Virus record (IMG/VR): IMGVR_UViG_2657245570_000016
Strand: one strand, 5' to 3'
Origin: a virus
Lineage: Duplodnaviria > Heunggongvirae > Uroviricota > Caudoviricetes
Length of the DNA: 42,242 nucleotides
This document shows, one piece after another, positions 3,525 through 34,732 of the stretch. Under the pieces are notes generated by a model. It saw only the letters and a list, made by a program, of their open reading frames with translations, did no database searches and had not been told where the DNA came from. The translations under genes were made by a program, and so were the position numbers. Every line of letters begins with the position of its first letter. The stretch's first letter is position 1.

Positions 3525-4442
3525 TTATAATAGTGCTGTTACTATTGCATCTTTAAAAATATTTTCTTCTTCATTTATTAAAGGTGATGACAGATGAATA
3601 ATTACTTCTTTTCCTGTCAATACTATTTGCTCGACTTGAAATCCTGCGTTGTGTAGTCTTTGGCGTAACTTTTCTAGTGCTGATTTTGATATACTAAATC
3701 CTTCACTCCTTATAGTATAACTGGCAACTCCATTTTTAATAATATCTACAGAGTTGTCAATTTCCTGCTGCGAGTAATTTTTCGGTGAGTCGAAAAATCT
3801 GGATTTTGTCGTTGCTGTTGCCCTAAGAGATATCAATAATGATTTGATATCTTTAATCTCAGATGCCAGATACTCAGTTTCTGATACTTCTTTCTGGTCT
3901 AGTTGTGCAACTTTGAAAGTGCCAAAATGTTTGAGGAATGTTGTGTATTCAGGATCAGTTACTGACTTTAAATATGTTTCTTTTATCTTGCTCGCAAGTC
4001 TTTCTTTGAATAAATTGATTGATTGGTATCTTAAATCCGAAGGGTACTCTAAATGTTCAATTGATGAAATGTCAAAGCTATAAGGAGTGCGCTCGTCCTT
4101 AATAATTACGGTCGGTTTGTCAAATGCGAGACGCATTCCTAATTCAAACATTACATTAGCGTTTCGAGCACTTATATCGCAAACAACTATGGGGTTTTCA
4201 TAAAGATTTTGAACAATTCGTTTTTGTATTACTGCAACATCATCATCTGAACTTACCAAATTTGCCTTGAATCCGGCATCATTTGATGCTTCACAAATAA
4301 TGTCATGAACATTTCTCCAATGTCCAGTGGGATAACCTTCTATGTCCGCAATTGGCATAATAATGCCGCATATATGAGGTGGCATATTTTTGTTGTCTTT
4401 TACATCATCTTGGTTTATTTCTTTCGTTTGTTGCTTAGCCAT
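3525..4442 (-). CDS. Hypothetical protein: N-terminal TIR-like / nucleoside 2-deoxyribosyltransferase-like domain plus C-terminal domain of unknown function (about 170 aa)
   Basis: N-terminal ICGIIMPIA...IVVCDISARNANVMFELGMRLAFDKPTVIIKD...SFDISSIEHLEY resembles the conserved core (R.xNV.FE.G ... pSD..G..Y) of TIR-like/deoxyribosyltransferase-like folds. Visibly AT-rich relative to neighbours; good AGGAG Shine-Dalgarno before the ATG at 4440-4442. Confidence 0.5.
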   Translation of the reverse strand: MAKQQTKEINQDDVKDNKNMPPHICGIIMPIADIEGYPTGHWRNVHDIICEASNDAGFKANLVSSDDDVAVIQKRIVQNLYENPIVVCDISARNANVMFELGMRLAFDKPTVIIKDERTPYSFDISSIEHLEYPSDLRYQSINLFKERLASKIKETYLKSVTDPEYTTFLKHFGTFKVAQLDQKEVSETEYLASEIKDIKSLLISLRATATTKSRFFDSPKNYSQQEIDNSVDIIKNGVASYTIRSEGFSISKSALEKLRQRLHNAGFQVEQIVLTGKEVIIHLSSPLINEEENIFKDAIVTALL

Positions 4443-5171: not shown

Positions 5172-5933
5172 TTACGAGGAAGCGTTAGCTATTTGAGCTT
5201 GTGTAAATTCGAAACCAGAATTTTGTAACCGTTGCACTAGACGAGGAACTGTTTCACGTACATGGTCGTTGAAATTCAGATACAAAATCCCGTTAGCATC
5301 AGAAGGCTGTTCTAGGTGCTGTTTCTGAAGGATTGCTACATTGCTGCGCCCTAAGGACGAAAGAAGCATACCCATCTCGAGTACAACGTTCTGTCTTGCG
5401 CGGGGTTGGATTTCTGCTTCACCGGCGCGCTTTGAGTATCCCATATCATCAGGTGTCAAAAGAACAATCCCGAAACGAGTAGCAGTTTGTCCTTGCCCAA
5501 TTTCACGTTCAAGCTCTTCAATAATGGTGAGTCCAGTCCCTCCCGTATTCTGCAAAATGAAATGGTCTGGTAATCCAAGTTTATGAAGGATTAGCTCAAG
5601 TTGTTCCTTTGCAGTATGGTCATGGCCGTGAACAATGAATATCTTTTTGGGAAGCTCAGATGGCTGTTCTACGGCTAGTGGTGTTGCCGTGGGGGGCGTT
5701 CCTAAATGGGACATTATTGCAGTTTCAACATTGGGACGTTCTTGAGGGTTCCCTTGAAACTGAATGGTCCGGGTGGTGTAAAGGTTAACAATTACGCCAT
5801 TCGTTAAACGATAGCAGTCATAAGTCTCACGCTGTTCGTGGGAAAAATTGGTGAACCCACACTCCCTCAAAAAGTCAGGAAAAGATTCTCTCGGGTATGG
5901 ATAGTTGATCGGCATTTCAGTTAGTTCCTGCAT
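5172..5933 (-). CDS. Hypothetical protein: N-terminal domain of unknown function (about 90 aa) plus C-terminal TIR-like domain (Cap12/PycTIR-type predicted nucleotide-binding fold)
   Basis: C-terminal KKIFIVHGHDH...FGIVLLTPDD...RARQNVVLEMGMLLSSLGRSNVAILQK...PSDANGILYL matches my recollection of the TIR-like consensus (FIvHG ... TPDD ... RaRqNVvfElG ... pSD..G..y). GC content looks lower than the flanking pol gene. AAAGGA Shine-Dalgarno before the ATG. Confidence 0.55.
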   Translation of the reverse strand: MQELTEMPINYPYPRESFPDFLRECGFTNFSHEQRETYDCYRLTNGVIVNLYTTRTIQFQGNPQERPNVETAIMSHLGTPPTATPLAVEQPSELPKKIFIVHGHDHTAKEQLELILHKLGLPDHFILQNTGGTGLTIIEELEREIGQGQTATRFGIVLLTPDDMGYSKRAGEAEIQPRARQNVVLEMGMLLSSLGRSNVAILQKQHLEQPSDANGILYLNFNDHVRETVPRLVQRLQNSGFEFTQAQIANASS

Positions 5934-8107: not shown

Positions 8108-8737
8108 ATGCATATGATCCAATACTTGATTGACCATACAGAGCATCTGGAGAAAATAGCTGGATATATTTTTTCATGTTTGATTGTTATGGGAGTCTGG
8201 ATAAGAAAGATCATTTTTAATTATAAGTATAAAGAGCCTAAATATGTCAAGAAGTTAATTTTATATTTAATTAAGTATGAACGTTATCTGGATAAGGAGG
8301 ATAAGAAAGCCATAGAAAAAAGAATAAATGATAAAATTATTCGTGATGCGCTGAAATTGCAATCCTCTTATAACCGAAGAGATGTTATTTACATTTGCAA
8401 TAGATTAGAAAAAAGACAGTATATAAATCAGTTGATTAAGCTTCAGAATTATATAGAGAAAGATAACGGAGTGTTTTTTATTAATGTTGATTTTTCAGGT
8501 TTTTTATTTATTATTAGTCGTCTGTTTTCCTTTCTGTGTTTTGTGCTGTTTACCCTTTTTTCTATTATCTGCATTATTTCCATAGGGCAAAATGAAGGCC
8601 TTTTAAATTATCTTGTGTATATGGTTATGATAATAGTTTTAGAGACTGTTGGTTTTTGGATGTATGATACTTTCCCGTCTAAGAAAAAGATCTGTGAACT
8701 AAATAAAGAATTGAGAAAGATTAAGATTCCTGAGTGA
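8108..8737 (+). CDS. Hypothetical integral membrane protein (AT-rich moron on the opposite strand)
   Basis: Strongly AT-rich coding sequence. Predicted N-terminal transmembrane helix (IAGYIFSCLIVMGVWI), a Lys/Tyr-rich soluble middle, and two C-terminal hydrophobic helices. Convergent with the flanking early genes. Confidence 0.55.
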   Translation: MHMIQYLIDHTEHLEKIAGYIFSCLIVMGVWIRKIIFNYKYKEPKYVKKLILYLIKYERYLDKEDKKAIEKRINDKIIRDALKLQSSYNRRDVIYICNRLEKRQYINQLIKLQNYIEKDNGVFFINVDFSGFLFIISRLFSFLCFVLFTLFSIICIISIGQNEGLLNYLVYMVMIIVLETVGFWMYDTFPSKKKICELNKELRKIKIPE

Positions 8738-10657: not shown

Positions 10658-11560
10658 TTAACCCTCCAGTGCTTTTTCAGCCAGGGTGATTACTTCAGCG
10701 AGATTTTCATCCGTTACTTCACCAAGTTTCCTGGCTCCCTGTTTTTCCAGAATTGCAATAGCTTCTGCCCGGTAACCCCCTTTTGCTAACTGGAGGATCA
10801 ACCCTTCAGCTTGTTTGCGTAGTGCCGCGAAATCAATTGTATGGTCATCTTTGGCGTCATTATTCTGGCTGGAATTTGCTGTGTCTCTGCGTGCAAATTC
10901 TTCCTGCAGCTGAAGGTACTCAACACGGTTGGTCTCGATATGGCCTTTTTTCAGCATCTCGTTCAACTTGCGTAAGGTGTGGAGTTCACTGGCTGCTGTG
11001 CCGGATACATTTTTGACGTAAAACGGCCCCGTGCGTTCTCCATCTTTGTTACTGGCCTTTTTCGGCTTAACTTCATCACGCCCATCCGCAGGTGCATCAA
11101 GTAGCTGCTCGGCAAAAGCACGTCGCTCGCCGATGGTTGGCAGGTCGTCCCAGAACTTAAGGATGTTACGGGACAGGTCCAGGAGAGCAGGTTTAAGCAG
11201 CGCCCTGGCTCGTTTGACGCCCTGCAATGCGCTGTCGAGAGCATCAATCTGAACTACTCGTTTATCGCCTTCAGCATCACGGTAGGCAACAGCACGTTGC
11301 AGCATGTCTTCTGTGATAGGGGTGGCTACTGGGTAGAAACCAGCCAGTGCGATAACGTCGCTGAACTCCAGATCATCCAGTGTCATTGCCGCTGACATAT
11401 TTTCAGTTTCAGTTGCTGTATCCCGACATTCCTGCACTCGTGAAATCGTGTCAGGATGCATAACAATACCTGATGCCATTGTGCGGATAAGACGTTCAAG
11501 CAGCGCATTATGTTGTGCCAGAAGTTGATTATTAAGTTCGAGACTGGTTTCTAAACTCAT
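10658..11560 (-). CDS. Hypothetical phage early protein
   Basis: 300-aa ORF in the early-left operon, 3 nt from the downstream gene; no recognisable motif. Confidence 0.5.
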
Positions 11561-11706
11561 ACTGTGGTCCTCGCTACAAGGAGAATGAAAGTGATGATCA
11601 GACCGAGCGCAGTGGCAACGGCCAGACCGGTCATCAAATCGAAGTTTTTACGGCGATAACGGAGAACATCGCGCCCCGTCAGTCGATAGAGGTGTTCAGG
11701 TTTCAT
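11557..11706 (-). CDS. Small hydrophobic protein (49 aa), first ORF of the early-left operon
   Basis: Hand translation [49 protein letters not shown]; its stop overlaps the start of the next gene (ATGA). Below the ORF-track length cutoff. Confidence 0.35.
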   Translation of the reverse strand: MKPEHLYRLTGRDVLRYRRKNFDLMTGLAVATALGLIITFILLVARTTV

Positions 11707-11761
11707 CGGTTGTATTCCTTTTTTCATATCGGGGAGCGCGCTGTTGCGAGTGCGCTTTCAG

Positions 11762-11791
11762 ACATAAAAAAGCCCGTCATTTGCGGCGGGC
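11762..11791 (-). terminator. Terminator-like hairpin in the early-left leader (minus-strand sense)
   Basis: Minus-strand RNA GCCCG-(10-nt loop)-CGGGC followed by UUUUUUAU; lies between the presumed leftward promoter region and the first early ORF. Confidence 0.4.
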
Positions 11792-11930
11792 AAAGACTAC
11801 ACACAGCAATTACATGGATATCATCGAGTGCCTGCTTTTAACCACATCAGGCGAGGTGGTTCTCCTTGTACCCCTACAGTGAGAAATCGTCTAATATCTC
11901 TTCACCCCTACAGTTTGAGAGAGATTAGAT

Positions 11931-12500
11931 ATGTCTGAAGAAAAAGGAATTCTTTCCCGGATAACTGAATCGTTATCCGGCGTGGGAGGAGCAATTAAAG
12001 GCGCGGTTGGAGCAGCAAGAGAGATTCAGAATCTGACTGTCGACTATGCAGTTAAAGAGAAGACGCACACCTTACTCGATAAGCTAATGGATGTTCAGAT
12101 GCAGCAAATGTCGCTTCAGGAGCTGCTGATTGCGGCTAAGGAGAAAATTGTTGAACTGGAAAATGAGAAAGTAAAGCAAGAGAACTGGGCCGCTGAAGCG
12201 GCGAGCTATGAACTTTACCAGCCTATGCGGGGTACTCTGGTCTATCGCAGCAAGCTTTCTGCAGATACTGACCAATCTCCGGTTTATATTTGTCCCAATT
12301 GCTACGAGCAAAAGAGAAAATCTATATTGCAAGCGGAAGGTCTGGTTATTAAGCCAGGCCTTGGGCGAGCCGTTAATATGGTTTGTTCGCACTGTAGGGC
12401 TTCCTATCTGTTCAACCGAAATGCTTTAGAGGCCAGACTGCCTGCTGAAGATGAAAATCCGGGGAAGGCAATCACGGATTACGATCCTTACAACCAGTAA
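11931..12500 (+). CDS. Hypothetical protein with N-terminal coiled-coil and C-terminal CxxC...CxxC zinc ribbon
   Basis: 189 aa; heptad-like QMQQMSLQELLIAAKEKIVELENEKVKQ region; CPNC ... CSHC pairs; own ATG; transcribed opposite to the early-left operon and convergent with cI. Confidence 0.55.
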   Translation: MSEEKGILSRITESLSGVGGAIKGAVGAAREIQNLTVDYAVKEKTHTLLDKLMDVQMQQMSLQELLIAAKEKIVELENEKVKQENWAAEAASYELYQPMRGTLVYRSKLSADTDQSPVYICPNCYEQKRKSILQAEGLVIKPGLGRAVNMVCSHCRASYLFNRNALEARLPAEDENPGKAITDYDPYNQ

Positions 12501-12807
12501 TTTCTTTAAGCATGGGTACCCTTCCGGCCACCCAGAGTTAAAGGAACTAAGCGCCCCATCGTCGGGGCGTTTCAACTTGCGTGACTTATCAGTTCGTCGC
12601 GGTGTTGTCCTCTACGCTTACCGTACGCATACGGACTCGGCGCTTACCTCGATCCCATCGGGTGCCATTTCATTTTGCCAGGAGTACTGCGGCTTACCTG
12701 TCACGCGGTTCAGTTTGTTAAAGAGCTGGTATTAAAAAACGCATTAATTATGCGGTATCGTATTTATATGCGTTATGGGATTTTGCGTCAATACGAAAAT
12801 GAATTAT

Positions 12808-12845
12808 TTTGCAAATAAGAAAACCGCCCTTGTGGAGAGCGGTTT
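12808..12845 (-). terminator. Rho-independent terminator downstream of the repressor gene (minus-strand sense)
   Basis: AAACCGC-(11-nt loop)-GCGGTTT perfect 7-bp stem; on the minus strand it is followed by CUUAUUUGCAAAAUAAUU; about 30 nt past the cI stop. Confidence 0.5.
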
Positions 12846-12875
12846 GATCAGAAGTAAGTTATCAGACTGTAAAGG

Positions 12876-13550
12876 TTAGTACATGCGTAGCGCGGATTTG
12901 GCGATCCCCGCCACGTAATGGATTTTTTCAATGTTTTCGCGTGGTACTCTGACTGGTGGATGATCTTCATTTACAGACATTAGATGGAACAGGCCATCGC
13001 GTTCGAACAAGAAGGTTTTAACCATGACCTCACCGTCCCGGGTAACCACAAGTACTTCATCACCAGGAGTGTAGTCGTGGTTGGGTTCGACGATTACGAA
13101 CTCACCCTCTTTGATTCTAGGCATCATTGAATCACCAACACATTTCAGGGCGTATGCATCTTCATCCTTTGTCGGCCAGTATATGAAACCATCACTGCTA
13201 CCTACTGAATATTGGGTGTCGCTCCAAAGTCCTCCAACGCCTAGCTGAGTGTTTCCCAAAACAGGTACTTTATTAAACCTAAGAGAAATATACGTTTTTA
13301 TACCCGTCGCGTCCTCTTTCTCCATTTCTTGAAGGCTCCTTTCTGCCAGGTCTATTGGTGACACGTGGAAGTAGTCGGCGATCTGCTTTAACGTTGCGTA
13401 TTTCGGATCTTTCACCTCTCCTGATACCAGCCTGTGTAGCGTTGGTTGGTTCAGTTGTAACCGACGTGCCAGCTCAGTTATCGAGCTTATCTTGGCTTTG
13501 TCCATCAGGTACTTGATGTTTTGAGAAAGGATATCGGTAGTATCAATCAT
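12876..13550 (-). CDS. cI: CI-like phage repressor (HTH plus S24 LexA-type peptidase domain)
   Basis: N-terminal HTH (ITELARRLQLNQPTLHRLVSGE) and C-terminal S24 motifs (GDSM serine, VMVKTF lysine); divergent from a Cro-like gene. Confidence 0.9.
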   Translation of the reverse strand: MIDTTDILSQNIKYLMDKAKISSITELARRLQLNQPTLHRLVSGEVKDPKYATLKQIADYFHVSPIDLAERSLQEMEKEDATGIKTYISLRFNKVPVLGNTQLGVGGLWSDTQYSVGSSDGFIYWPTKDEDAYALKCVGDSMMPRIKEGEFVIVEPNHDYTPGDEVLVVTRDGEVMVKTFLFERDGLFHLMSVNEDHPPVRVPRENIEKIHYVAGIAKSALRMY

Positions 13551-13691
13551 TTGGATTCATCCATGTTGTATACAGGGACGGTGATTATGCGTTATCGGAT
13601 ATTTTAATCCAGGATGATATAGAATTGCCGTATTGCTGAATAATCCGTTTTCGTATAAATTTGCGCTATAGACGAAAGTGGAGACTTAAAT
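13551..13691. promoter_or_regulatory. Immunity-region intergenic DNA (expected divergent promoters and operators)
   Basis: 141-bp AT-rich spacer between divergent cI and cro; individual operators not resolved by eye. Confidence 0.5.
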
Positions 13692-13892
13692 ATGTCCGGA
13701 CTAACACCACAAGAGATGGTCAAAAGCTTGATTGATTCAGGGTATACCCAAAACCAAATTGCCGAAATTGCAGGCGTGAAGCAGTCTTCTATTAGTCGGC
13801 TTCTCACCGGGGTTCATTCTGACCCTCGCTTTTCTACAGTACGTGCGATAGAAAAGCTTTTTCAGGAAGTGACAGCTAGACAAAAGGCGTAA
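13692..13892 (+). CDS. cro: Cro-like HTH regulator
   Basis: 66 aa with HTH (YTQNQIAEIAGVKQSSISRLLTG); divergent from cI; GGAG Shine-Dalgarno. Confidence 0.7.
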   Translation: MSGLTPQEMVKSLIDSGYTQNQIAEIAGVKQSSISRLLTGVHSDPRFSTVRAIEKLFQEVTARQKA

Positions 13893-29381: not shown

Positions 29382-29822
29382 ATGTCTACCTATTCTTTTA
29401 TGGATGTCACTGCGACGCTGACCGGGCCGACCGGTTCGATTGACCTCGGGTACGGTTCGGCAAGTTCTGAAGAGGGGATTGTGGTTGCGATGGGCGGTCC
29501 TAAAAACACCATGACCATCGGTGCTGATGGTGAAGTGATGCACAGCCTCCATGCAGATAAAAGCGGGACGATTACCGTTAACCTTCTGAAGACATCACCG
29601 ACAAATAAAAAATTGTCGCTGGCGTATAACGCACAGAGCCAGTCTTCTGCCACATGGGGGAATAACGTTATCGTTATCCGCAACAAGGTCAGCGGCGACA
29701 TCATCACGGCACGCAGTGTTGCGTTCCAGAAACAACCGGATAACGCCAACGCTAAAACCGGTAATACGATGCCGTGGGTGTTTGACTGCGGCAAGATTGA
29801 CCAGGTTCTCGGGGAGTTTTAA
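29382..29822 (+). CDS. Tail tube protein
   Basis: 146 aa between sheath and chaperone genes. Confidence 0.55.
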   Translation: MSTYSFMDVTATLTGPTGSIDLGYGSASSEEGIVVAMGGPKNTMTIGADGEVMHSLHADKSGTITVNLLKTSPTNKKLSLAYNAQSQSSATWGNNVIVIRNKVSGDIITARSVAFQKQPDNANAKTGNTMPWVFDCGKIDQVLGEF

Positions 29823-33332: not shown

Positions 33333-34397
33333 ATGTCACAGAACTGGATGAGACATTTCGAGCTGCAGCTTGTGGACGGGAACGGTCAGGGAATTGAGCT
33401 AAGTGATTTCAAAGTCACCTTTACGATCGACTGGTTCAACATCAGCAGCGCGTCCCGGGTAGGGACTATCAAAATTTATAACCTCTCGGCAGATACTGTG
33501 AACCGAATTACCGGGCAGGAGTTTTCGAAAGTGCGTCTGATTGCCGGTTACGACGGTATCGCGCCGGAGGTGTCAGCAAGCGACGTAGGGACCGTGCGGG
33601 AAGTTGACGCGGCGGACGTGGGCCAGAGAGATGGCCGCAACTACGGACTGATTTTCAGCGGTGAAATTCGCTACTCGGTCACAGGAAAAGACAGTCCGGT
33701 TGATACCTACGTCCTGATTCAGGCAGCAGATACTGATCTGGCTTTTGCTACCAGTATAACCTCACAGACGCTGGCTGCCGGTTACACGGTCGCTGATGTG
33801 AACCGTGCGCTGATGAAAGACTTCGAAGCCAAAGGCGCGACCGAAGGCCTGACGCCTGAAATGCCTGCTACTGTATTCCCCCGGGGGCGGGTACTCTTTG
33901 GCATGACGCGGCATCTAATGGATAACGTAGCCGGACAATGTGGCGCAACATGGCAATTCGTGGACGGTCAGCGCCAGATGGTGGTGAATAACGAATATGT
34001 TCACGAAGCGATTGTGCTCAACAGCGCTACCGGGCTTATTGGAATGCCGCAGCAGACTATCGGTAACGGCGTAAACGTCCGCGCGCTTATTAATCCGAAC
34101 ATCCGGGTTAACGGGCTCATTCAGCTGGATCAGGCTTCCGTCTATCGTACCGCGTTGTCGAACAACGATATTGCGATGGCTGGTGGTCAGATCACCGACC
34201 AGAACACGGACGGAAATATCACGCTCAGCGGCACCACATCGCAGCCTGCCAGCATCGCAACGGATGGCGTTTATATTGTGCGCGGGATTATGTACACTGG
34301 CGACACAAGGGGCCAGGCGTGGTACATGGATATGATGTGTGAAGCGCGTGGCGCGGCGGATCTTGTTTCCTCATCAGCGAGGGAAAGAGGGCTTTAA
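33333..34397 (+). CDS. Putative baseplate hub / late control D-like protein
   Basis: 354 aa between tape measure-proximal genes and the spike gene. Confidence 0.4.
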   Translation: MSQNWMRHFELQLVDGNGQGIELSDFKVTFTIDWFNISSASRVGTIKIYNLSADTVNRITGQEFSKVRLIAGYDGIAPEVSASDVGTVREVDAADVGQRDGRNYGLIFSGEIRYSVTGKDSPVDTYVLIQAADTDLAFATSITSQTLAAGYTVADVNRALMKDFEAKGATEGLTPEMPATVFPRGRVLFGMTRHLMDNVAGQCGATWQFVDGQRQMVVNNEYVHEAIVLNSATGLIGMPQQTIGNGVNVRALINPNIRVNGLIQLDQASVYRTALSNNDIAMAGGQITDQNTDGNITLSGTTSQPASIATDGVYIVRGIMYTGDTRGQAWYMDMMCEARGAADLVSSSARERGL

Positions 34398-34732
34398 TGA
34401 AACGGTTATGTTTGGCGTTAGTTATGATGGTTACTGCTCCGGCGATGGCTGCAATTCAGTGCGGCAACTACACGATGACCGGTGACGGAATGACTGTTAT
34501 TAACGGTGAAACTGTCACATCACAGAAGATAAAATTTCTGGGAAAAGATGGTGACTATTCAAACATGAAAATGGACATGGGCCTGATGCCTTCCCGTGAT
34601 GGTAACAATTACGGCTTTGAGTTTGTGAAACGTAACGGAAAAGCTTTCCTGAACGTCCAGCTGCTGCAGAACAGCATGGACGCGCCGAAAATCATTGGAT
34701 CTTTCCCGTGTAAAAAAGTGAGCAGCAAGTGA
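34397..34732 (+). CDS. Secreted small protein (signal peptide), moron-like
   Basis: N-terminal signal peptide MKRLCLALVMMVTAPAMA|A; lower GC than flanking tail genes; TAATG overlap with the upstream gene. Confidence 0.5.
   Translation: MKRLCLALVMMVTAPAMAAIQCGNYTMTGDGMTVINGETVTSQKIKFLGKDGDYSNMKMDMGLMPSRDGNNYGFEFVKRNGKAFLNVQLLQNSMDAPKIIGSFPCKKVSSK

What the first reader, a model, noticed from the sequence alone, without database searches (positions are those of the whole stretch)
11707..12500. Coiled-coil / zinc-ribbon protein beside the immunity region, preceded by direct CCCCTACAGT repeats and partial dyad symmetry
11931..12500 is transcribed convergently with cI and opposite to the early-left operon. 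Upstream, CCCCTACAGT occurs twice 34 bp apart (11871-11880 and 11905-11914), flanked by an imperfect inverted repeat (TCTAATATCTCT / AGAGAGATTAGA). The position next to the repressor is where lysogeny-expressed exclusion or regulatory genes often sit, and the repeats are candidate operator or promoter elements.
Basis: seen in the sequence. Interest (0 to 1): 0.45.

Follow-up and report, generated by a model that had tools for sequence, protein, structure and literature searches.

The report
Rip1 anti-phage gene with antisense switch
The gene is a prophage copy of the recently described Rip1 anti-phage pore protein, and the repeats and dyad in front of it belong to a promoter-plus-antisense-RNA cassette already known from the sieB exclusion genes of phages P22 and lambda, so the finding is real but largely explained by known biology.

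Summary
In detail: ACCCCTACAGT occurs twice, 34 bp apart (11870-11880, 11904-11914), an 11/12 dyad flanks the second copy, and a 189-aa ORF lies at 11931-12500.

The ORF is a Rip1 ("ring interacting pore 1") homologue. It matches phage HK446 Rip1 (PDB 9OOX) at E=8.5e-48, about 52% identity, TM-score 0.89. Rip1 is a single-protein defence that forms a membrane pore when it meets small-terminase or portal rings.

The 105 bp upstream (11828-11933) is 81-87% identical to the region upstream of sieB in lambda, P22 and HK620. P22's record annotates the sieB promoter and RNA start there. By alignment, copy 1 overlaps the -35/spacer and copy 2 starts at +1. The minus strand of this block corresponds to P22's sas antisense RNA.

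Across 30 variants, three helices covary, and both repeat copies sit in hairpin loops. CI-operator-like repeats lie elsewhere (12749-12814, 13586-13656).

The same cassette drives SieB, Rip1 or other small cargo in many phages. The verdict is a new member of known kinds, of modest interest.

Side leads: repeat pairs that covary between cassette variants, and a phage-borne mimic of processed RprA at 11811-11766.

The parts
11931..12500 (+). rip1 homologue, 189 aa. It has an N-terminal Gly/Ala-rich amphipathic helix (about residues 7-34), a long helix (39-90), a four-Cys beta/zinc-ribbon domain (93-162), and a 23-aa C-terminal tail ending in DYDPYNQ that HK446 Rip1 lacks.
   Evidence: phmmer against PDB 9oox_L 'ring interacting pore 1 (Rip1)' gives E=8.5e-48 over residues 3-166; the profile search gives E=1.5e-66. 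Foldseek of the AF2 model against 9oox_M gives TMt 0.89, rmsd 2.1 A, 50% identity. phrog_1244 matches at E=6e-40 with function listed as unknown.
11867..11897 (+). P_sieB-type promoter, placed by alignment to the annotated P22 sieB promoter. The -10 is TAATAT at 11892-11897. The -35 region TGTACC at 11867-11872 is poor, with a 19-nt spacer.
   Evidence: P22 record BK000583 annotates 'sieB promoter' at 29690-29720 and 'sieB RNA start site' at 29727. Assignment to the window is by homology only.
11904..11904 (+). Inferred transcription start of rip1. It is the A that begins the second ACCCCTACAGT copy.
   Evidence: It aligns to the P22 sieB RNA start site. It lies 7 nt after the -10 hexamer.
11870..11880 (+). 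Direct repeat copy 1. It overlaps the -35/spacer of the promoter. On the minus-strand RNA it is the loop (CUGUAGGGGU) of hairpin H2.
11904..11914 (+). Direct repeat copy 2. It forms +1 to +11 of the rip1 mRNA. On the minus-strand RNA it is the loop of hairpin H1.
11828..11936 (-). H2 has stem 11884-11880 / 11865-11861. H3 has stem 11860-11856 / 11845-11841. H3 is interleaved with a pseudoknot helix 11852-11848 / 11834-11830.
   Evidence: The region is 86% identical to the P22 region whose reverse complement is the 127-nt sas RNA sequence found by sRNA-seq (PMC13397905 Table 2). Covariation is shown (96.6% of cells paired, 5 pairs changed on both sides, 0/500 shuffles as high). The window's MFE structure shows H1, H2 and H3, with z=-2.3. 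The ends of the RNA in this phage are not known.
11820..12551 (.). Extent of the mobile cassette (antisense/promoter module plus rip1) within this phage family's variable slot.
   Evidence: Homology to rip1-less relatives such as the O55:H7 DEC5B prophage stops at 11819. The conserved leader block shared with relatives of other immunity or other cargo starts at about 12540-12552. The lambda-like prophage L005 and HK446 carry the same module plus rip1 in the sieB slot.
12551..12572 (+). GC-rich hairpin (GCGCCCC-6 nt-GGGGCG) followed by TTT, 50 nt after the rip1 stop codon. It is a weak terminator candidate and is usable on either strand.
   Evidence: Read from the sequence. The terminator scan did not call it because the T-run is short.
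12763..12791 (-). pL-like early-left promoter candidate, TTGACG-17 nt-TATAAA. It sits inside operator-like repeats and points leftward, so it would transcribe antisense through rip1.
   Evidence: Read from the minus-strand sequence. The region 12749-12814 shares 18-nt direct and 24-nt inverted matches with the cI/cro intergenic region 13586-13656. The scan tool did not list it because its rule requires T at the last position of the -10 hexamer. This part is an inference.
11766..11811 (-). RprA(processed)-like element. It consists of 24 nt identical to E. coli K-12 rprA (AATTGCTGTGTGTAGTCTTTGCCC), then a terminator hairpin and U6. It lies directly downstream of the sas-like region and upstream of the left operon.
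   Evidence: Rfam RF00034 scores 50.2 bits (gathering score 70), E=1e-5, with high posterior probability only over model positions 62-108. The element is present in rip1-less relatives.

Best explanation
The window is an E. coli temperate phage or prophage, identical to vB_EcoM-606R2/611R5. The stretch 11820-12551 is a portable 'moron' cassette with two parts.

(1) The cargo gene is a member of the Rip1 family, single-protein abortive-type defences. As published for P. aeruginosa and HK446 Rip1, the protein is harmless alone. When an infecting phage makes ring-shaped small-terminase or portal oligomers, the C-terminal zinc-ribbon half docks around the ring. The N-terminal amphipathic helices then assemble into a membrane pore that kills or lyses the cell before progeny mature.

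(2) The 105 bp upstream is the P_sieB/sas module known from P22 and lambda. On the plus strand it is a promoter that is presumably active in the lysogen. The inferred +1 is the A at 11904, so the mRNA begins with the second ACCCCTACAGU copy. [quoted passage not shown] Both repeat copies sit in the loops of two consecutive hairpins.

Inferred regulation: in the lysogen CI represses the pL-like promoter at about 12790, so only rip1 mRNA is made. On induction, or in a superinfecting relative, leftward early transcription runs antisense through rip1. It yields the sas-like RNA, whose loop pairs with the 5' end of the mRNA, as in IS10 RNA-OUT/RNA-IN. Rip1 synthesis is shut off, so the phage's own terminase and portal rings do not trigger suicide.

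Shown here: homology, fold, promoter-region homology, RNA covariation, cassette mobility. Inferred: expression timing, the source of the antisense RNA, the self-protection role, and the trigger specificity of this allele.
For: Protein:
- phmmer against 9OOX Rip1 gives E=8.5e-48; the profile search gives E=1.5e-66.
- Foldseek gives TMt 0.89 and rmsd 2.1 A to 'HK446 Rip1 in complex with T6 small terminase'.
- The four Cys are invariant. Helix 7-34 is predicted and scores a moderate hydrophobic moment, muH about 0.35-0.42.
- The family is large: 3411 representatives at E<=1e-3. It includes Pseudomonas D3112/DMS3/JBD30-type phages. That fits the review's account of Patel et al. 2026, Nature 651:1060 (PMC13434031; PMC13601566).

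Cassette:
- Window 11828-11933 matches lambda 34395-34499, P22 29651-29736, HK620 and others at 81-87% identity.
- The P22 promoter and RNA start are annotated there. Both repeat copies are invariant in the alignments.
- HK446 rip1 itself, and HK620 hkaP, sit behind the same module in the sieB slot, convergent with N.
- Among loci carrying the double repeat, 93 have SieB cargo, 28 have Rip1/HkaP cargo, and 2 have other cargo.

Antisense RNA:
- The published P22 sas sequence is the reverse complement of this block.
- Helices H2, H3 and the pseudoknot are 96.6% paired, with 5 pairs changed on both sides and 0/500 shuffles as high. Wobble pairs (U-G, G-U) are tolerated only on the minus strand.
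- The H1 stem re-forms from different sequences in 22 of 30 variants at z<=-1.7.
- The window's own fold shows H1, H2 and H3 with z=-2.3.
- Conservation stops at the start codon whatever the cargo, and no consensus minus-strand promoter lies inside the rip1 5' region. Both points fit an antisense RNA derived from read-through rather than from its own promoter.
- A pL-like promoter and operator-like repeats lie at 12749-12814.
Against: - There are no expression or phenotype data for this allele.
- The ring-binding half is only 47% identical to HK446 Rip1, and there is an extra 23-aa tail. Trigger specificity, and even activity, are therefore untested.
- PADLOC (2023), Pfam and NCBIfam give no hit, presumably because these libraries predate the family's description.
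- The primary Rip1 paper could not be read. The mechanism is taken from a review and a PDB title.
- The P_sieB -35 is poor and its spacer is 19 nt. The consensus scan did not call this promoter.
- Between the pL-like promoter and rip1 there are terminator-like hairpins (12754-12740, 12569-12551), and no N-like antiterminator was identified. Read-through is therefore assumed, not shown.
- That P22 sas comes from pL transcripts is my recollection and was not verified in the papers available.
- No Esc-like internal start is evident in rip1, so the P22 'switch' logic may not transfer fully.
- The motif-anchored set fixes both repeat copies by construction. Their invariance in that set is not independent evidence.
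Confidence: 0.78

Rival explanations
1. The cassette's promoter half works here, so rip1 is made in the lysogen, but the antisense half is only inherited baggage. No functional sas-like RNA is made in this non-lambdoid phage. The repeats and dyad matter only as DNA, as promoter architecture or as binding sites for some protein.
For: No dedicated minus-strand promoter was found. Terminator-like hairpins lie between the pL-like promoter and rip1. No N-like antiterminator was identified. Copy 1 overlaps the -35/spacer and copy 2 the start site, positions where DNA-binding regulators often act.
Against: Wobble pairs in the helices fit only the minus-strand RNA. The H1 stem is rebuilt from unrelated sequences in different cargo variants. 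The repeat sequence differs between cassette variants but matches within each locus. A host DNA-binding factor cannot explain that, and the cassette encodes no regulator. In the window the helices are intact and the region folds better than all 200 shuffles.
Confidence: 0.15
2. The CCCCTACAGT repeats and the dyad are operators for the phage CI repressor or for the 189-aa protein itself, which would be a zinc-ribbon autoregulator or anti-sigma factor.
For: The position is next to the immunity region. The direct repeats have a helical-turn-like spacing of 34 bp. The protein has a four-Cys motif.
Against: The same repeats occur in phages with unrelated repressors: lambda, P22, HK620, HK446, and an O121 prophage with a different LexA-family repressor. 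They also occur in front of unrelated cargo, SieB membrane proteins. Sequences shared with the cI/cro operator region lie at 12749-12814, not here. The protein matches a pore-forming defence protein at E=8.5e-48 and TM 0.89. It matches no DNA-binding or anti-sigma family.
Confidence: 0.04
3. The ORF is a decayed or neofunctionalised Rip1 relative that no longer defends. For example, its divergent C-terminal half and extra tail might recognise something other than packaging rings.
For: Only 47% identity over residues 93-166, and a 23-aa tail absent from HK446 Rip1. A neighbouring allele in the same phage family (SEC470, 174 aa) is only 39% identical in this half. That shows rapid turnover of the sensor region.
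Against: The ORF is intact and 97-100% conserved across dozens of E. coli genomes. All four Cys and the other family-invariant residues are kept. The fold is retained. Fast divergence of a sensor domain is what an arms race predicts.
Confidence: 0.08

Closest known systems
Rip1 (ring interacting pore 1) of Escherichia phage HK446 and P. aeruginosa prophages (Patel et al. 2026, Nature 651:1060; PDB 9OOX)
   Same: Same family and fold: about 52% identity over 164 aa, TM 0.89. It has an N-terminal amphipathic helix, a long helix and a four-Cys C-terminal domain. It is a single prophage gene. In HK446 it sits behind the same upstream cassette, on the strand opposite to early-left transcription.
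   Different: It is 25 aa longer, with a conserved DYDPY tail. The ring-binding half is only 47% identical. The host phage is not lambdoid in its replication module (PolA, DUF2800, DUF2815, D5-like primase). In P. aeruginosa the gene lies between the terminase genes rather than near the immunity region. Activity and trigger are untested here.
P22 / lambda sieB-esc-sas superinfection exclusion locus (Ranade & Poteete 1993)
   Same: The upstream 105 bp are homologous (81-87%). They include the annotated promoter, the RNA start and the whole region encoding the sas antisense RNA. The gene has the same orientation, antisense to pL transcription.
   Different: The cargo is Rip1, not the SieB membrane protein; no SieB Pfam hit was found. 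No Esc-like in-frame second start is evident. Here the module is followed within 20 nt by an RprA-like seed and terminator.
IS10 RNA-OUT / RNA-IN antisense control (works like, not a member)
   Same: The target mRNA's very 5' end is complementary to the loop of a stable antisense hairpin, and the hairpin's arm covers the ribosome-binding site. This is inferred from the TSS mapping and the H1 structure.
   Different: The sequences are unrelated. Here a second hairpin carries the same loop sequence, and a 3' pseudoknot follows. The antisense RNA probably derives from an early-operon transcript rather than from its own promoter.
E. coli RprA sRNA, processed 47-nt form
   Same: The 24-nt single-stranded segment is 100% identical, and it is followed by a terminator hairpin of the same shape and a U-run. 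The processed 47-nt form of RprA is active in regulation (PMC9262595).
   Different: The 5' 60 nt of RprA are absent. The Rfam score is below the gathering threshold (50.2 against 70). The element is phage-borne and sits as a 3' element of early-left transcripts.

Membership tests
Rip1 family | Significant sequence homology to an experimentally characterised Rip1 | tested here: met
   phmmer E=8.5e-48 over residues 3-166 against 9oox_L. Profile search E=1.5e-66. tblastn to HK446 gp37 gives 52% identity.
Rip1 family | Same three-dimensional fold as the solved Rip1 | tested here: met
   The AF2 model (pLDDT 70.9) against 9oox_M gives TMt 0.89, rmsd 2.1 A and probability 1.00. The next hit has E=0.29.
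Rip1 family | N-terminal amphipathic helix (the pore-forming part) | tested here: met
   Helix 7-34 is predicted. The hydrophobic moment is 0.35-0.42 over residues 7-39, with a Gly/Ala-rich face. This segment is 63% identical to HK446 Rip1. Membrane insertion was not tested.
Rip1 family | C-terminal ring-binding domain with conserved CxxC...CxxC | tested here: met
   C121, C124, C152 and C155 are invariant in 14 homologues. A beta domain is modelled at 93-162. Zinc binding and ring binding were not tested.
Rip1 family | Activation by oligomeric phage rings (small terminase or portal) and pore formation; protection against phage | not testable with these tools
   This needs phage challenge, co-expression and liposome assays. 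It is known only for HK446 and P. aeruginosa Rip1 (review PMC13434031; PDB title).
Rip1 family | Single gene carried by a prophage | tested here: met
   The window is identical to phage vB_EcoM-606R2/611R5 and lies on the chromosome in 169 of 5426 E. coli genomes. No partner gene is in the cassette.
P_sieB / sas regulatory cassette (P22, lambda) | Sequence homology to the mapped P22 sieB promoter and RNA start | tested here: met
   86% identity over 86 nt to P22 29651-29736. The annotated promoter 29690-29720 and start 29727 align to window 11867-11897 and 11904.
P_sieB / sas regulatory cassette (P22, lambda) | Minus strand corresponds to the sas antisense RNA and overlaps the cargo's translation start | tested here: met
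   The P22 sas sequence from sRNA-seq is the reverse complement of the aligned block. In the window the block runs through the rip1 ATG.
P_sieB / sas regulatory cassette (P22, lambda) | Conserved RNA secondary structure supported by covariation | tested here: met
   One search covers H2, H3 and the pseudoknot: 5 pairs with changes on both sides, 0/500 shuffles as high. One search covers H1 folded per sequence. One search shows RNAalifold recovering H2 and the pseudoknot helix. Caveat: the sequences were ascertained by the repeat motif.
P_sieB / sas regulatory cassette (P22, lambda) | Actual transcription of mRNA in the lysogen and of antisense RNA during lytic growth | not testable with these tools
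   No transcript data exist for this phage. For P22 there are the annotation and sRNA-seq from infected cells.
P_sieB / sas regulatory cassette (P22, lambda) | Second in-frame product (Esc) that antagonises the full-length protein | tested here: inconclusive
   Internal Met53, Met57 and Met60 exist, but I saw no convincing Shine-Dalgarno sequence on reading. Met53 is not invariant in homologues.
SieB protein family | Homology to SieB | tested here: not met
   No SieB domain among the Pfam hits at E<=10. The cargo clusters with HK446 Rip1 and HK620 HkaP, separately from P22 and lambda SieB.
CI operator | Sequence shared with the cI/cro operator region and specific to this immunity type | tested here: not met
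   Repeats shared with 13586-13656 lie at 12749-12814, not at 11870-11930. The CCCCTACAG repeats occur in phages of other immunity types.
RprA (Rfam RF00034), for the element at 11762-11875 minus strand | Score at or above the Rfam gathering threshold over the full model | tested here: not met
   50.2 bits against a gathering score of 70. Only model positions 62-108 align with high posterior probability. The element is a mimic of the processed 3' part, not a full RprA.

The most novel reading that the evidence does not exclude
The P_sieB/sas block may be one variant of a widespread, portable 'self-silencing' expression platform for suicide-type defence genes in enterobacterial prophages. The platform has a 3' pseudoknot, two antisense hairpins, and a promoter whose transcript starts inside the repeat.

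The two 9-13-nt direct repeats, 33-34 bp apart, differ between platform variants but are identical within each locus. Examples are ACCCCTACAG, TTCCACAGTCAA, TCCCCAACAAC, TCCCCAACGA, CCCCAATGCAA and CCCCCACAA. This implies that both antisense loops must match the 5' end of the cargo mRNA.

In this phage the antisense unit would in addition be fused to a mimic of processed RprA. Early-left transcription would then release an Hfq-type regulator of host genes at the moment Rip1 is switched off.
Probability: 0.35. Interest if true: 0.6.

Novelty: new member of a known kind. Interest (0 to 1): 0.38.

Why it matters
The result gives a function to a 'hypothetical protein' (WP_001551500-type, phrog_1244). 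The prophage region carrying it (11500-13000) matched 169 of 5426 complete E. coli genomes, 49 of them over at least 80% of its length. Thousands of related sequence clusters exist, and current defence-finder and family libraries missed the protein.

It also shows that Rip1 in E. coli phages rides on the old sieB promoter/antisense cassette. That suggests how a prophage can carry a pore-forming suicide protein triggered by packaging rings without killing itself on induction. This is a testable link between a 1993 antisense-RNA story and a 2026 defence mechanism.

The allelic diversity of the C-terminal half in one prophage slot offers natural material for mapping trigger specificity. None of this overturns current understanding.

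Tried and rejected
- Pfam, NCBIfam and PADLOC scans of the ORF gave only noise-level zinc-ribbon hits. PHROGs gave a family of unknown function.
- The first word-indexed homologue search found only 16 proteins. The exhaustive profile search was needed to see the size of the family.
- The primary Rip1 paper is not in the library, and a phrase search found nothing. The mechanism was therefore taken from a review, a conference report and the PDB title.
- I looked for a statement on how P22 sas is made. The sequence was found but not its promoter or processing.
- The second P22 record (NC_002371) uses different coordinates and gave no help.
- The CI-operator idea was rejected.
- The third, one-mismatch copy of the motif inside rip1 (12391-12400) and the 14-nt inverted match (pair I3) were judged to be at chance level.
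- The consensus promoter scan called neither P_sieB nor the pL-like promoter, so both rest on homology or direct reading.
- Folding of the 12535-12760 leader gave no signal, z=+0.6.
- The Rfam hits to L20 leader and anti-hemB are noise.
- An Esc-like internal start was considered and left open.
Full report
**What the window is.** The stretch 11500-13000 is 100% identical to Escherichia phages vB_EcoM-606R2, -689R2 and -611R5. It lies on the chromosome in 169 of 5426 complete E. coli genomes, 49 of them with at least 80% coverage. Both sets of records annotate the ORF as 'hypothetical protein'.

The neighbourhood reads as follows:
- A leftward operon runs from 11706 on the minus strand. It holds a small TM protein, a 300-aa protein, DUF2800, DUF2815 and PolA.
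- The 189-aa ORF sits on the plus strand.
- A cI-like S24 repressor lies at 12876-13550 (-).
- A cro-like gene lies at 13692-13892 (+).
- A D5/DUF5906 primase, a Q antiterminator and lysis genes follow.

**Observation.**
- ACCCCTACAGT occurs at 11870-11880 and 11904-11914, 34 bp apart. It is 11 nt long, not 10.
- The dyad TCTAATATCTCT / AGAGAGATTAGA lies at 11890-11901 and 11918-11929, 11 of 12 complementary.
- The ORF 11931-12500 is convergent with cI.
- An exact repeat of this length and spacing in a 230-bp spacer is expected about 0.0025 times by my arithmetic.
- A loose whole-window motif count is not significant by itself.
- Conservation settles the matter (see below).

**The protein.** Pfam, NCBIfam and PADLOC give nothing meaningful. 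PHROGs places it in phrog_1244, of unknown function.

A search of PDB sequences gives one overwhelming hit. It is 9OOX chain L, 'ring interacting pore 1 (Rip1)', at E=8.5e-48 for the single sequence and 1.5e-66 for a 14-sequence profile. The match covers residues 3-166.

An AF2 model (pLDDT 70.9) has helices 7-34 and 39-90 and a beta domain at 93-162. It matches 9oox_M with TM 0.89, rmsd 2.1 A and 50% identity. That entry is titled 'Escherichia phage HK446 Rip1 in complex with the Enterobacteria phage T6 small terminase'. No other PDB chain comes close. C121, C124, C152 and C155 are invariant among homologues.

The published account comes from a review of Patel et al. 2026 (Nature 651:1060; PMC13434031), with PMC13601566 and PMC12908700:
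- Rip1 is a prophage-encoded single protein that is not toxic alone.
- Escapers map to portal in Pseudomonas phages and to small terminase in coliphages.
- Twelve Rip1 subunits ring an 11-mer small terminase.
- The N-terminal amphipathic helix forms the pore, and the C-terminal half contacts the ring.
- Pores release dye from liposomes, and infected cells die prematurely.

I could not read the primary paper.

The family is large. An exhaustive profile search gives 3411 cluster representatives at E<=1e-3. tblastn finds it in HK446, ev099, HK620/HK629/HK630 (as 'HkaP', a putative superinfection exclusion protein), Klebsiella phages and many Pseudomonas D3112/DMS3/JBD-type phages.

Compared with HK446 Rip1, identity falls from 63% (residues 1-35) to 53% (36-92) and 47% (93-166). 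The last 23 residues, ending DYDPYNQ, have no counterpart. That tail is shared by two other 188-aa homologues.

Within this phage family the same slot holds two alleles. One is a 97-100% identical allele next to a different repressor, in an O121 strain. The other is a 174-aa allele only 39% identical in the C-terminal half, in SEC470. This pattern is expected for a sensor domain under diversifying selection.

**The upstream region.** A sensitive blastn of 11560-12060 against E. coli genomes gave an unexpected result. Window 11828-11913/11933 matches more than a thousand genomes at 80-90% identity, always in unannotated DNA. The matches lie immediately upstream of sieB, or of a Rip1 homologue, in lambda-like prophages, between ral/ea10 and N.

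In phage records the same block matches lambda 34395-34499, P22 29651-29736, HK620, HK140 and 150 others. The P22 record BK000583 annotates 'sieB promoter' at 29690-29720 and 'sieB RNA start site' at 29727 under the match.

From the alignments:
- The promoter corresponds to window 11867-11897, with -10 TAATAT at 11892-11897.
- The start corresponds to A11904, the first base of repeat copy 2.
- Copy 1 covers the -35/spacer.

HK446 rip1, the experimentally studied gene, and HK620 hkaP have the same block and the same orientation, convergent with N.

**The minus strand.** An sRNA-seq study of P22 lists the sequence of sas, the antisense RNA of sieB (PMC13397905 Table 2). It is the reverse complement of exactly this block. 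It runs from just inside the sieB start codon to about 17 nt past the AACCAC...GTGGTT hairpin. sas is known to switch translation of sieB (reviews).

I collected the block from viral contigs by the double repeat: at least 120 loci and about 50 unique sequences. I aligned 30 unique minus-strand sequences. Three helices covary:
- H2: UUCUC(G)/(C)GAGAA, enclosing CUGUAGGGGUAC.
- H3: AACCAC/GUGGUU.
- An interleaved helix, GCCUG/CAGGC, which makes H3 a pseudoknot.

In total, 96.6% of cells are paired and 5 pairs are changed on both sides. None of 500 shuffles reaches these values, and slid controls collapse to 24-46% paired. The U-G and G-U cells would be A-C mismatches on the plus strand, so the structured molecule is the minus-strand RNA. 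RNAalifold independently recovers H2 and the pseudoknot helix.

H1 could not be aligned by MAFFT because its arms differ between cargo types. Folded one sequence at a time, with the motif held unpaired, 22 of 30 variants form a stem around the first CUGUAGGGGU at z<=-1.7. The window scores z=-4.9. The whole window segment 11940-11758 (-) folds into H1, H2, H3 and a terminator, better than all 200 shuffles (z=-2.3).

The 5' arm of H1 lies upstream of the plus-strand start. H1 therefore cannot form in the rip1 mRNA, only in the antisense RNA.

**What the repeats are.** On the mRNA, copy 2 is the 5' end. On the antisense RNA, both copies are hairpin loops.

To avoid circularity I re-ascertained loci by the pseudoknot sequence alone. 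Downstream of that anchor, at fixed offsets and 33-34 bp apart, different cassette variants carry different direct repeats: TTCCACAGTCAA, TCCCCAACAAC, TCCCCAACGA, CCCCAATGCAA, CCCCCACAA and ACCCCTACAG. In each locus the two copies are identical, and 0-5 of 200 shuffles reach the observed repeat length. The second copy again follows a TATAAT-like hexamer by about 7 nt.

The two copies therefore co-evolve. The simplest reading is that both antisense loops must stay complementary to the 5' end of the mRNA. This resembles IS10 RNA-OUT/RNA-IN, where pairing starts between a loop and a 5' end. A DNA-binding factor is a weaker alternative. The cassette encodes no regulator, a host factor would not change specificity, and the repeat type does not track the cargo (SieB or Rip1 behind the same repeat).

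The cargo behind these cassettes is diverse: Rip1-like proteins, SieB, small zinc ribbons and small membrane proteins.

**Where the antisense RNA would come from.** Conservation of the block stops at the cargo's start codon whatever the cargo. No consensus minus-strand promoter lies in the rip1 5' region. A dedicated promoter is therefore unlikely.

Left of cI there is a strong terminator at 12845-12821 (-). A region at 12749-12814 follows that shares an 18-nt direct repeat and a 24-nt inverted match with the cI/cro intergenic region. That region contains TTGACG-17 nt-TATAAA on the minus strand, at 12791-12763.

I read this as OL/pL. As in lambda, P22 and HK446, the defence gene then lies inside the early-left transcription unit but on the other strand.

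The inferred regulation runs as follows. CI keeps pL off in the lysogen, so rip1 is expressed. On induction, leftward transcription produces antisense RNA across rip1, including the sas-like structured part, and Rip1 synthesis stops. A phage whose own terminase and portal rings could trigger its own Rip1 would need such a switch.

Weak points:
- Hairpins at 12754-12740 and 12569-12551 could terminate transcription.
- No N-like factor was found.
- The origin of P22 sas from pL is my recollection, not something I could verify.

**Cassette limits.**
- Relatives without rip1, such as the O55:H7 DEC5B prophage, share the left flank up to 11819 and then diverge.
- Relatives with other cargo or other immunity share the block 12552-12726.
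- The cassette is therefore about 11820-12551.
- Its GC content (46%) is not distinctive.

**Comparison and verdict.**
- The protein passes every membership test for Rip1 that can be run in silico. The functional tests remain open.
- The upstream block passes the tests for the P_sieB/sas cassette, apart from an Esc-like second product, for which I see no evidence.
- The protein is not SieB.
- The repeats are not CI operators.
- This is a new member of known kinds, found in a non-lambdoid phage backbone and with a divergent sensor half.
The mechanism guesses (operators, DNA-binding zinc ribbon) were wrong.

**Side observation inside the finding's coordinates.** Rfam reports a sub-threshold RprA match at 11762-11875 (-), 50.2 bits against a gathering score of 70, E=1e-5.
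- Only the 3' part aligns well.
- 24 nt (AATTGCTGTGTGTAGTCTTTGCCC, 11811-11788) are identical to K-12 rprA. A terminator hairpin and U6 follow at 11791-11766.
- This corresponds to the last 47 nt of RprA, the processed form that exists in vivo and regulates on its own (PMC9262595).
- The exact 24-mer plus a covarying terminator occurs in 64 viral contigs and 40 unique contexts. These include positions directly after tRNA-like 3' ends. None has the RprA 5' part.
- I found no paper describing this.

Noticed in passing
window 11766-11811 (-); also L009 3700-3760 (-) and loci L235-L298: A phage-borne mimic of processed RprA. It has 24 nt identical to E. coli rprA, then a terminator. The Rfam RprA hit is below threshold (50.2 against 70 bits). 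The same 24-mer plus a covarying terminator occurs in 64 viral contigs and 40 unique contexts, several directly after tRNA-like 3' ends, and none has the RprA 5' half. In the rip1-less relative L009 it follows the stop codon of a small CxxC ORF. It could supply RprA-like regulation, or Hfq titration, from early-left transcripts.
   Followed up: partly
loci L137-L234 (anchor CTTTTAACCACNTCAGGC); window 11830-11860: The pseudoknot/hairpin at the 3' end of the sas-like RNA is a much more widespread element. It precedes many cassette variants. Their two direct repeats, 33-34 bp apart, differ between variants but match within each locus. The cargo is diverse: Rip1-like proteins, SieB, 66-76-aa zinc ribbons and small membrane proteins.
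   Followed up: partly
window 12552-12726: A 175-nt block between the pL-like promoter and rip1. It is conserved at 85-98% in relatives with different repressors and different cargo. On the minus strand it carries three GGTAAGC(G/C) repeats. It has no Rfam hit and no fold signal (z=+0.6). One relative annotates a 75-aa ORF over it. It may be a leader or antitermination element of the early-left transcript.
   Followed up: partly
window 12749-12814 and 13586-13656: Operator-like repeats shared between the region left of cI and the cI/cro intergenic region: an 18-nt direct family and a 24-nt inverted match. A TTGACG-17 nt-TATAAA promoter candidate on the minus strand lies at 12791-12763. The palindrome CGCATAATTAATGCG plus T6 follows at 12754-12740.
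   Followed up: partly
window 5172-5933 (-) and 3525-4442 (-): A second defence candidate in the same prophage. The 253-aa protein matches PADLOC PDC-S35 (E=1e-108) and the CAP12/Pycsar TIR domain PF10137 (E=3e-31). The neighbouring 305-aa ORF has a weak TIR-effector hit (E=1e-6).
   Followed up: partly
window 8108-8737 (+): A 209-aa ORF with hydrophobic stretches, in a 28% GC island. It lies on the opposite strand between PolA and DUF2815. It has no Pfam or PADLOC hit and looks like another moron inserted in the replication operon.
   Followed up: partly
window 11757-11766 and 11930-11939: A perfect 10-nt inverted repeat, TTCAGACATA / TATGTCTGAA. It pairs the complement of the rip1 start region with the sequence just past the RprA-like terminator, and it closes the whole predicted minus-strand structure in the MFE fold. 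The left arm is also present in rip1-less relatives, so the match may be coincidence (expected about 0.06) or a recombination microhomology.
   Followed up: no
L134 1894-2418 (E. coli SEC470) compared with window 11931-12500: The same slot of the same phage family, with the same cI, holds a 174-aa Rip1 allele. It is 57% identical in the N-terminal helix but only 39% identical in the ring-binding half. DNA homology of a relative breaks about 38 nt into rip1. This suggests recombinational swapping of sensor domains.
   Followed up: partly
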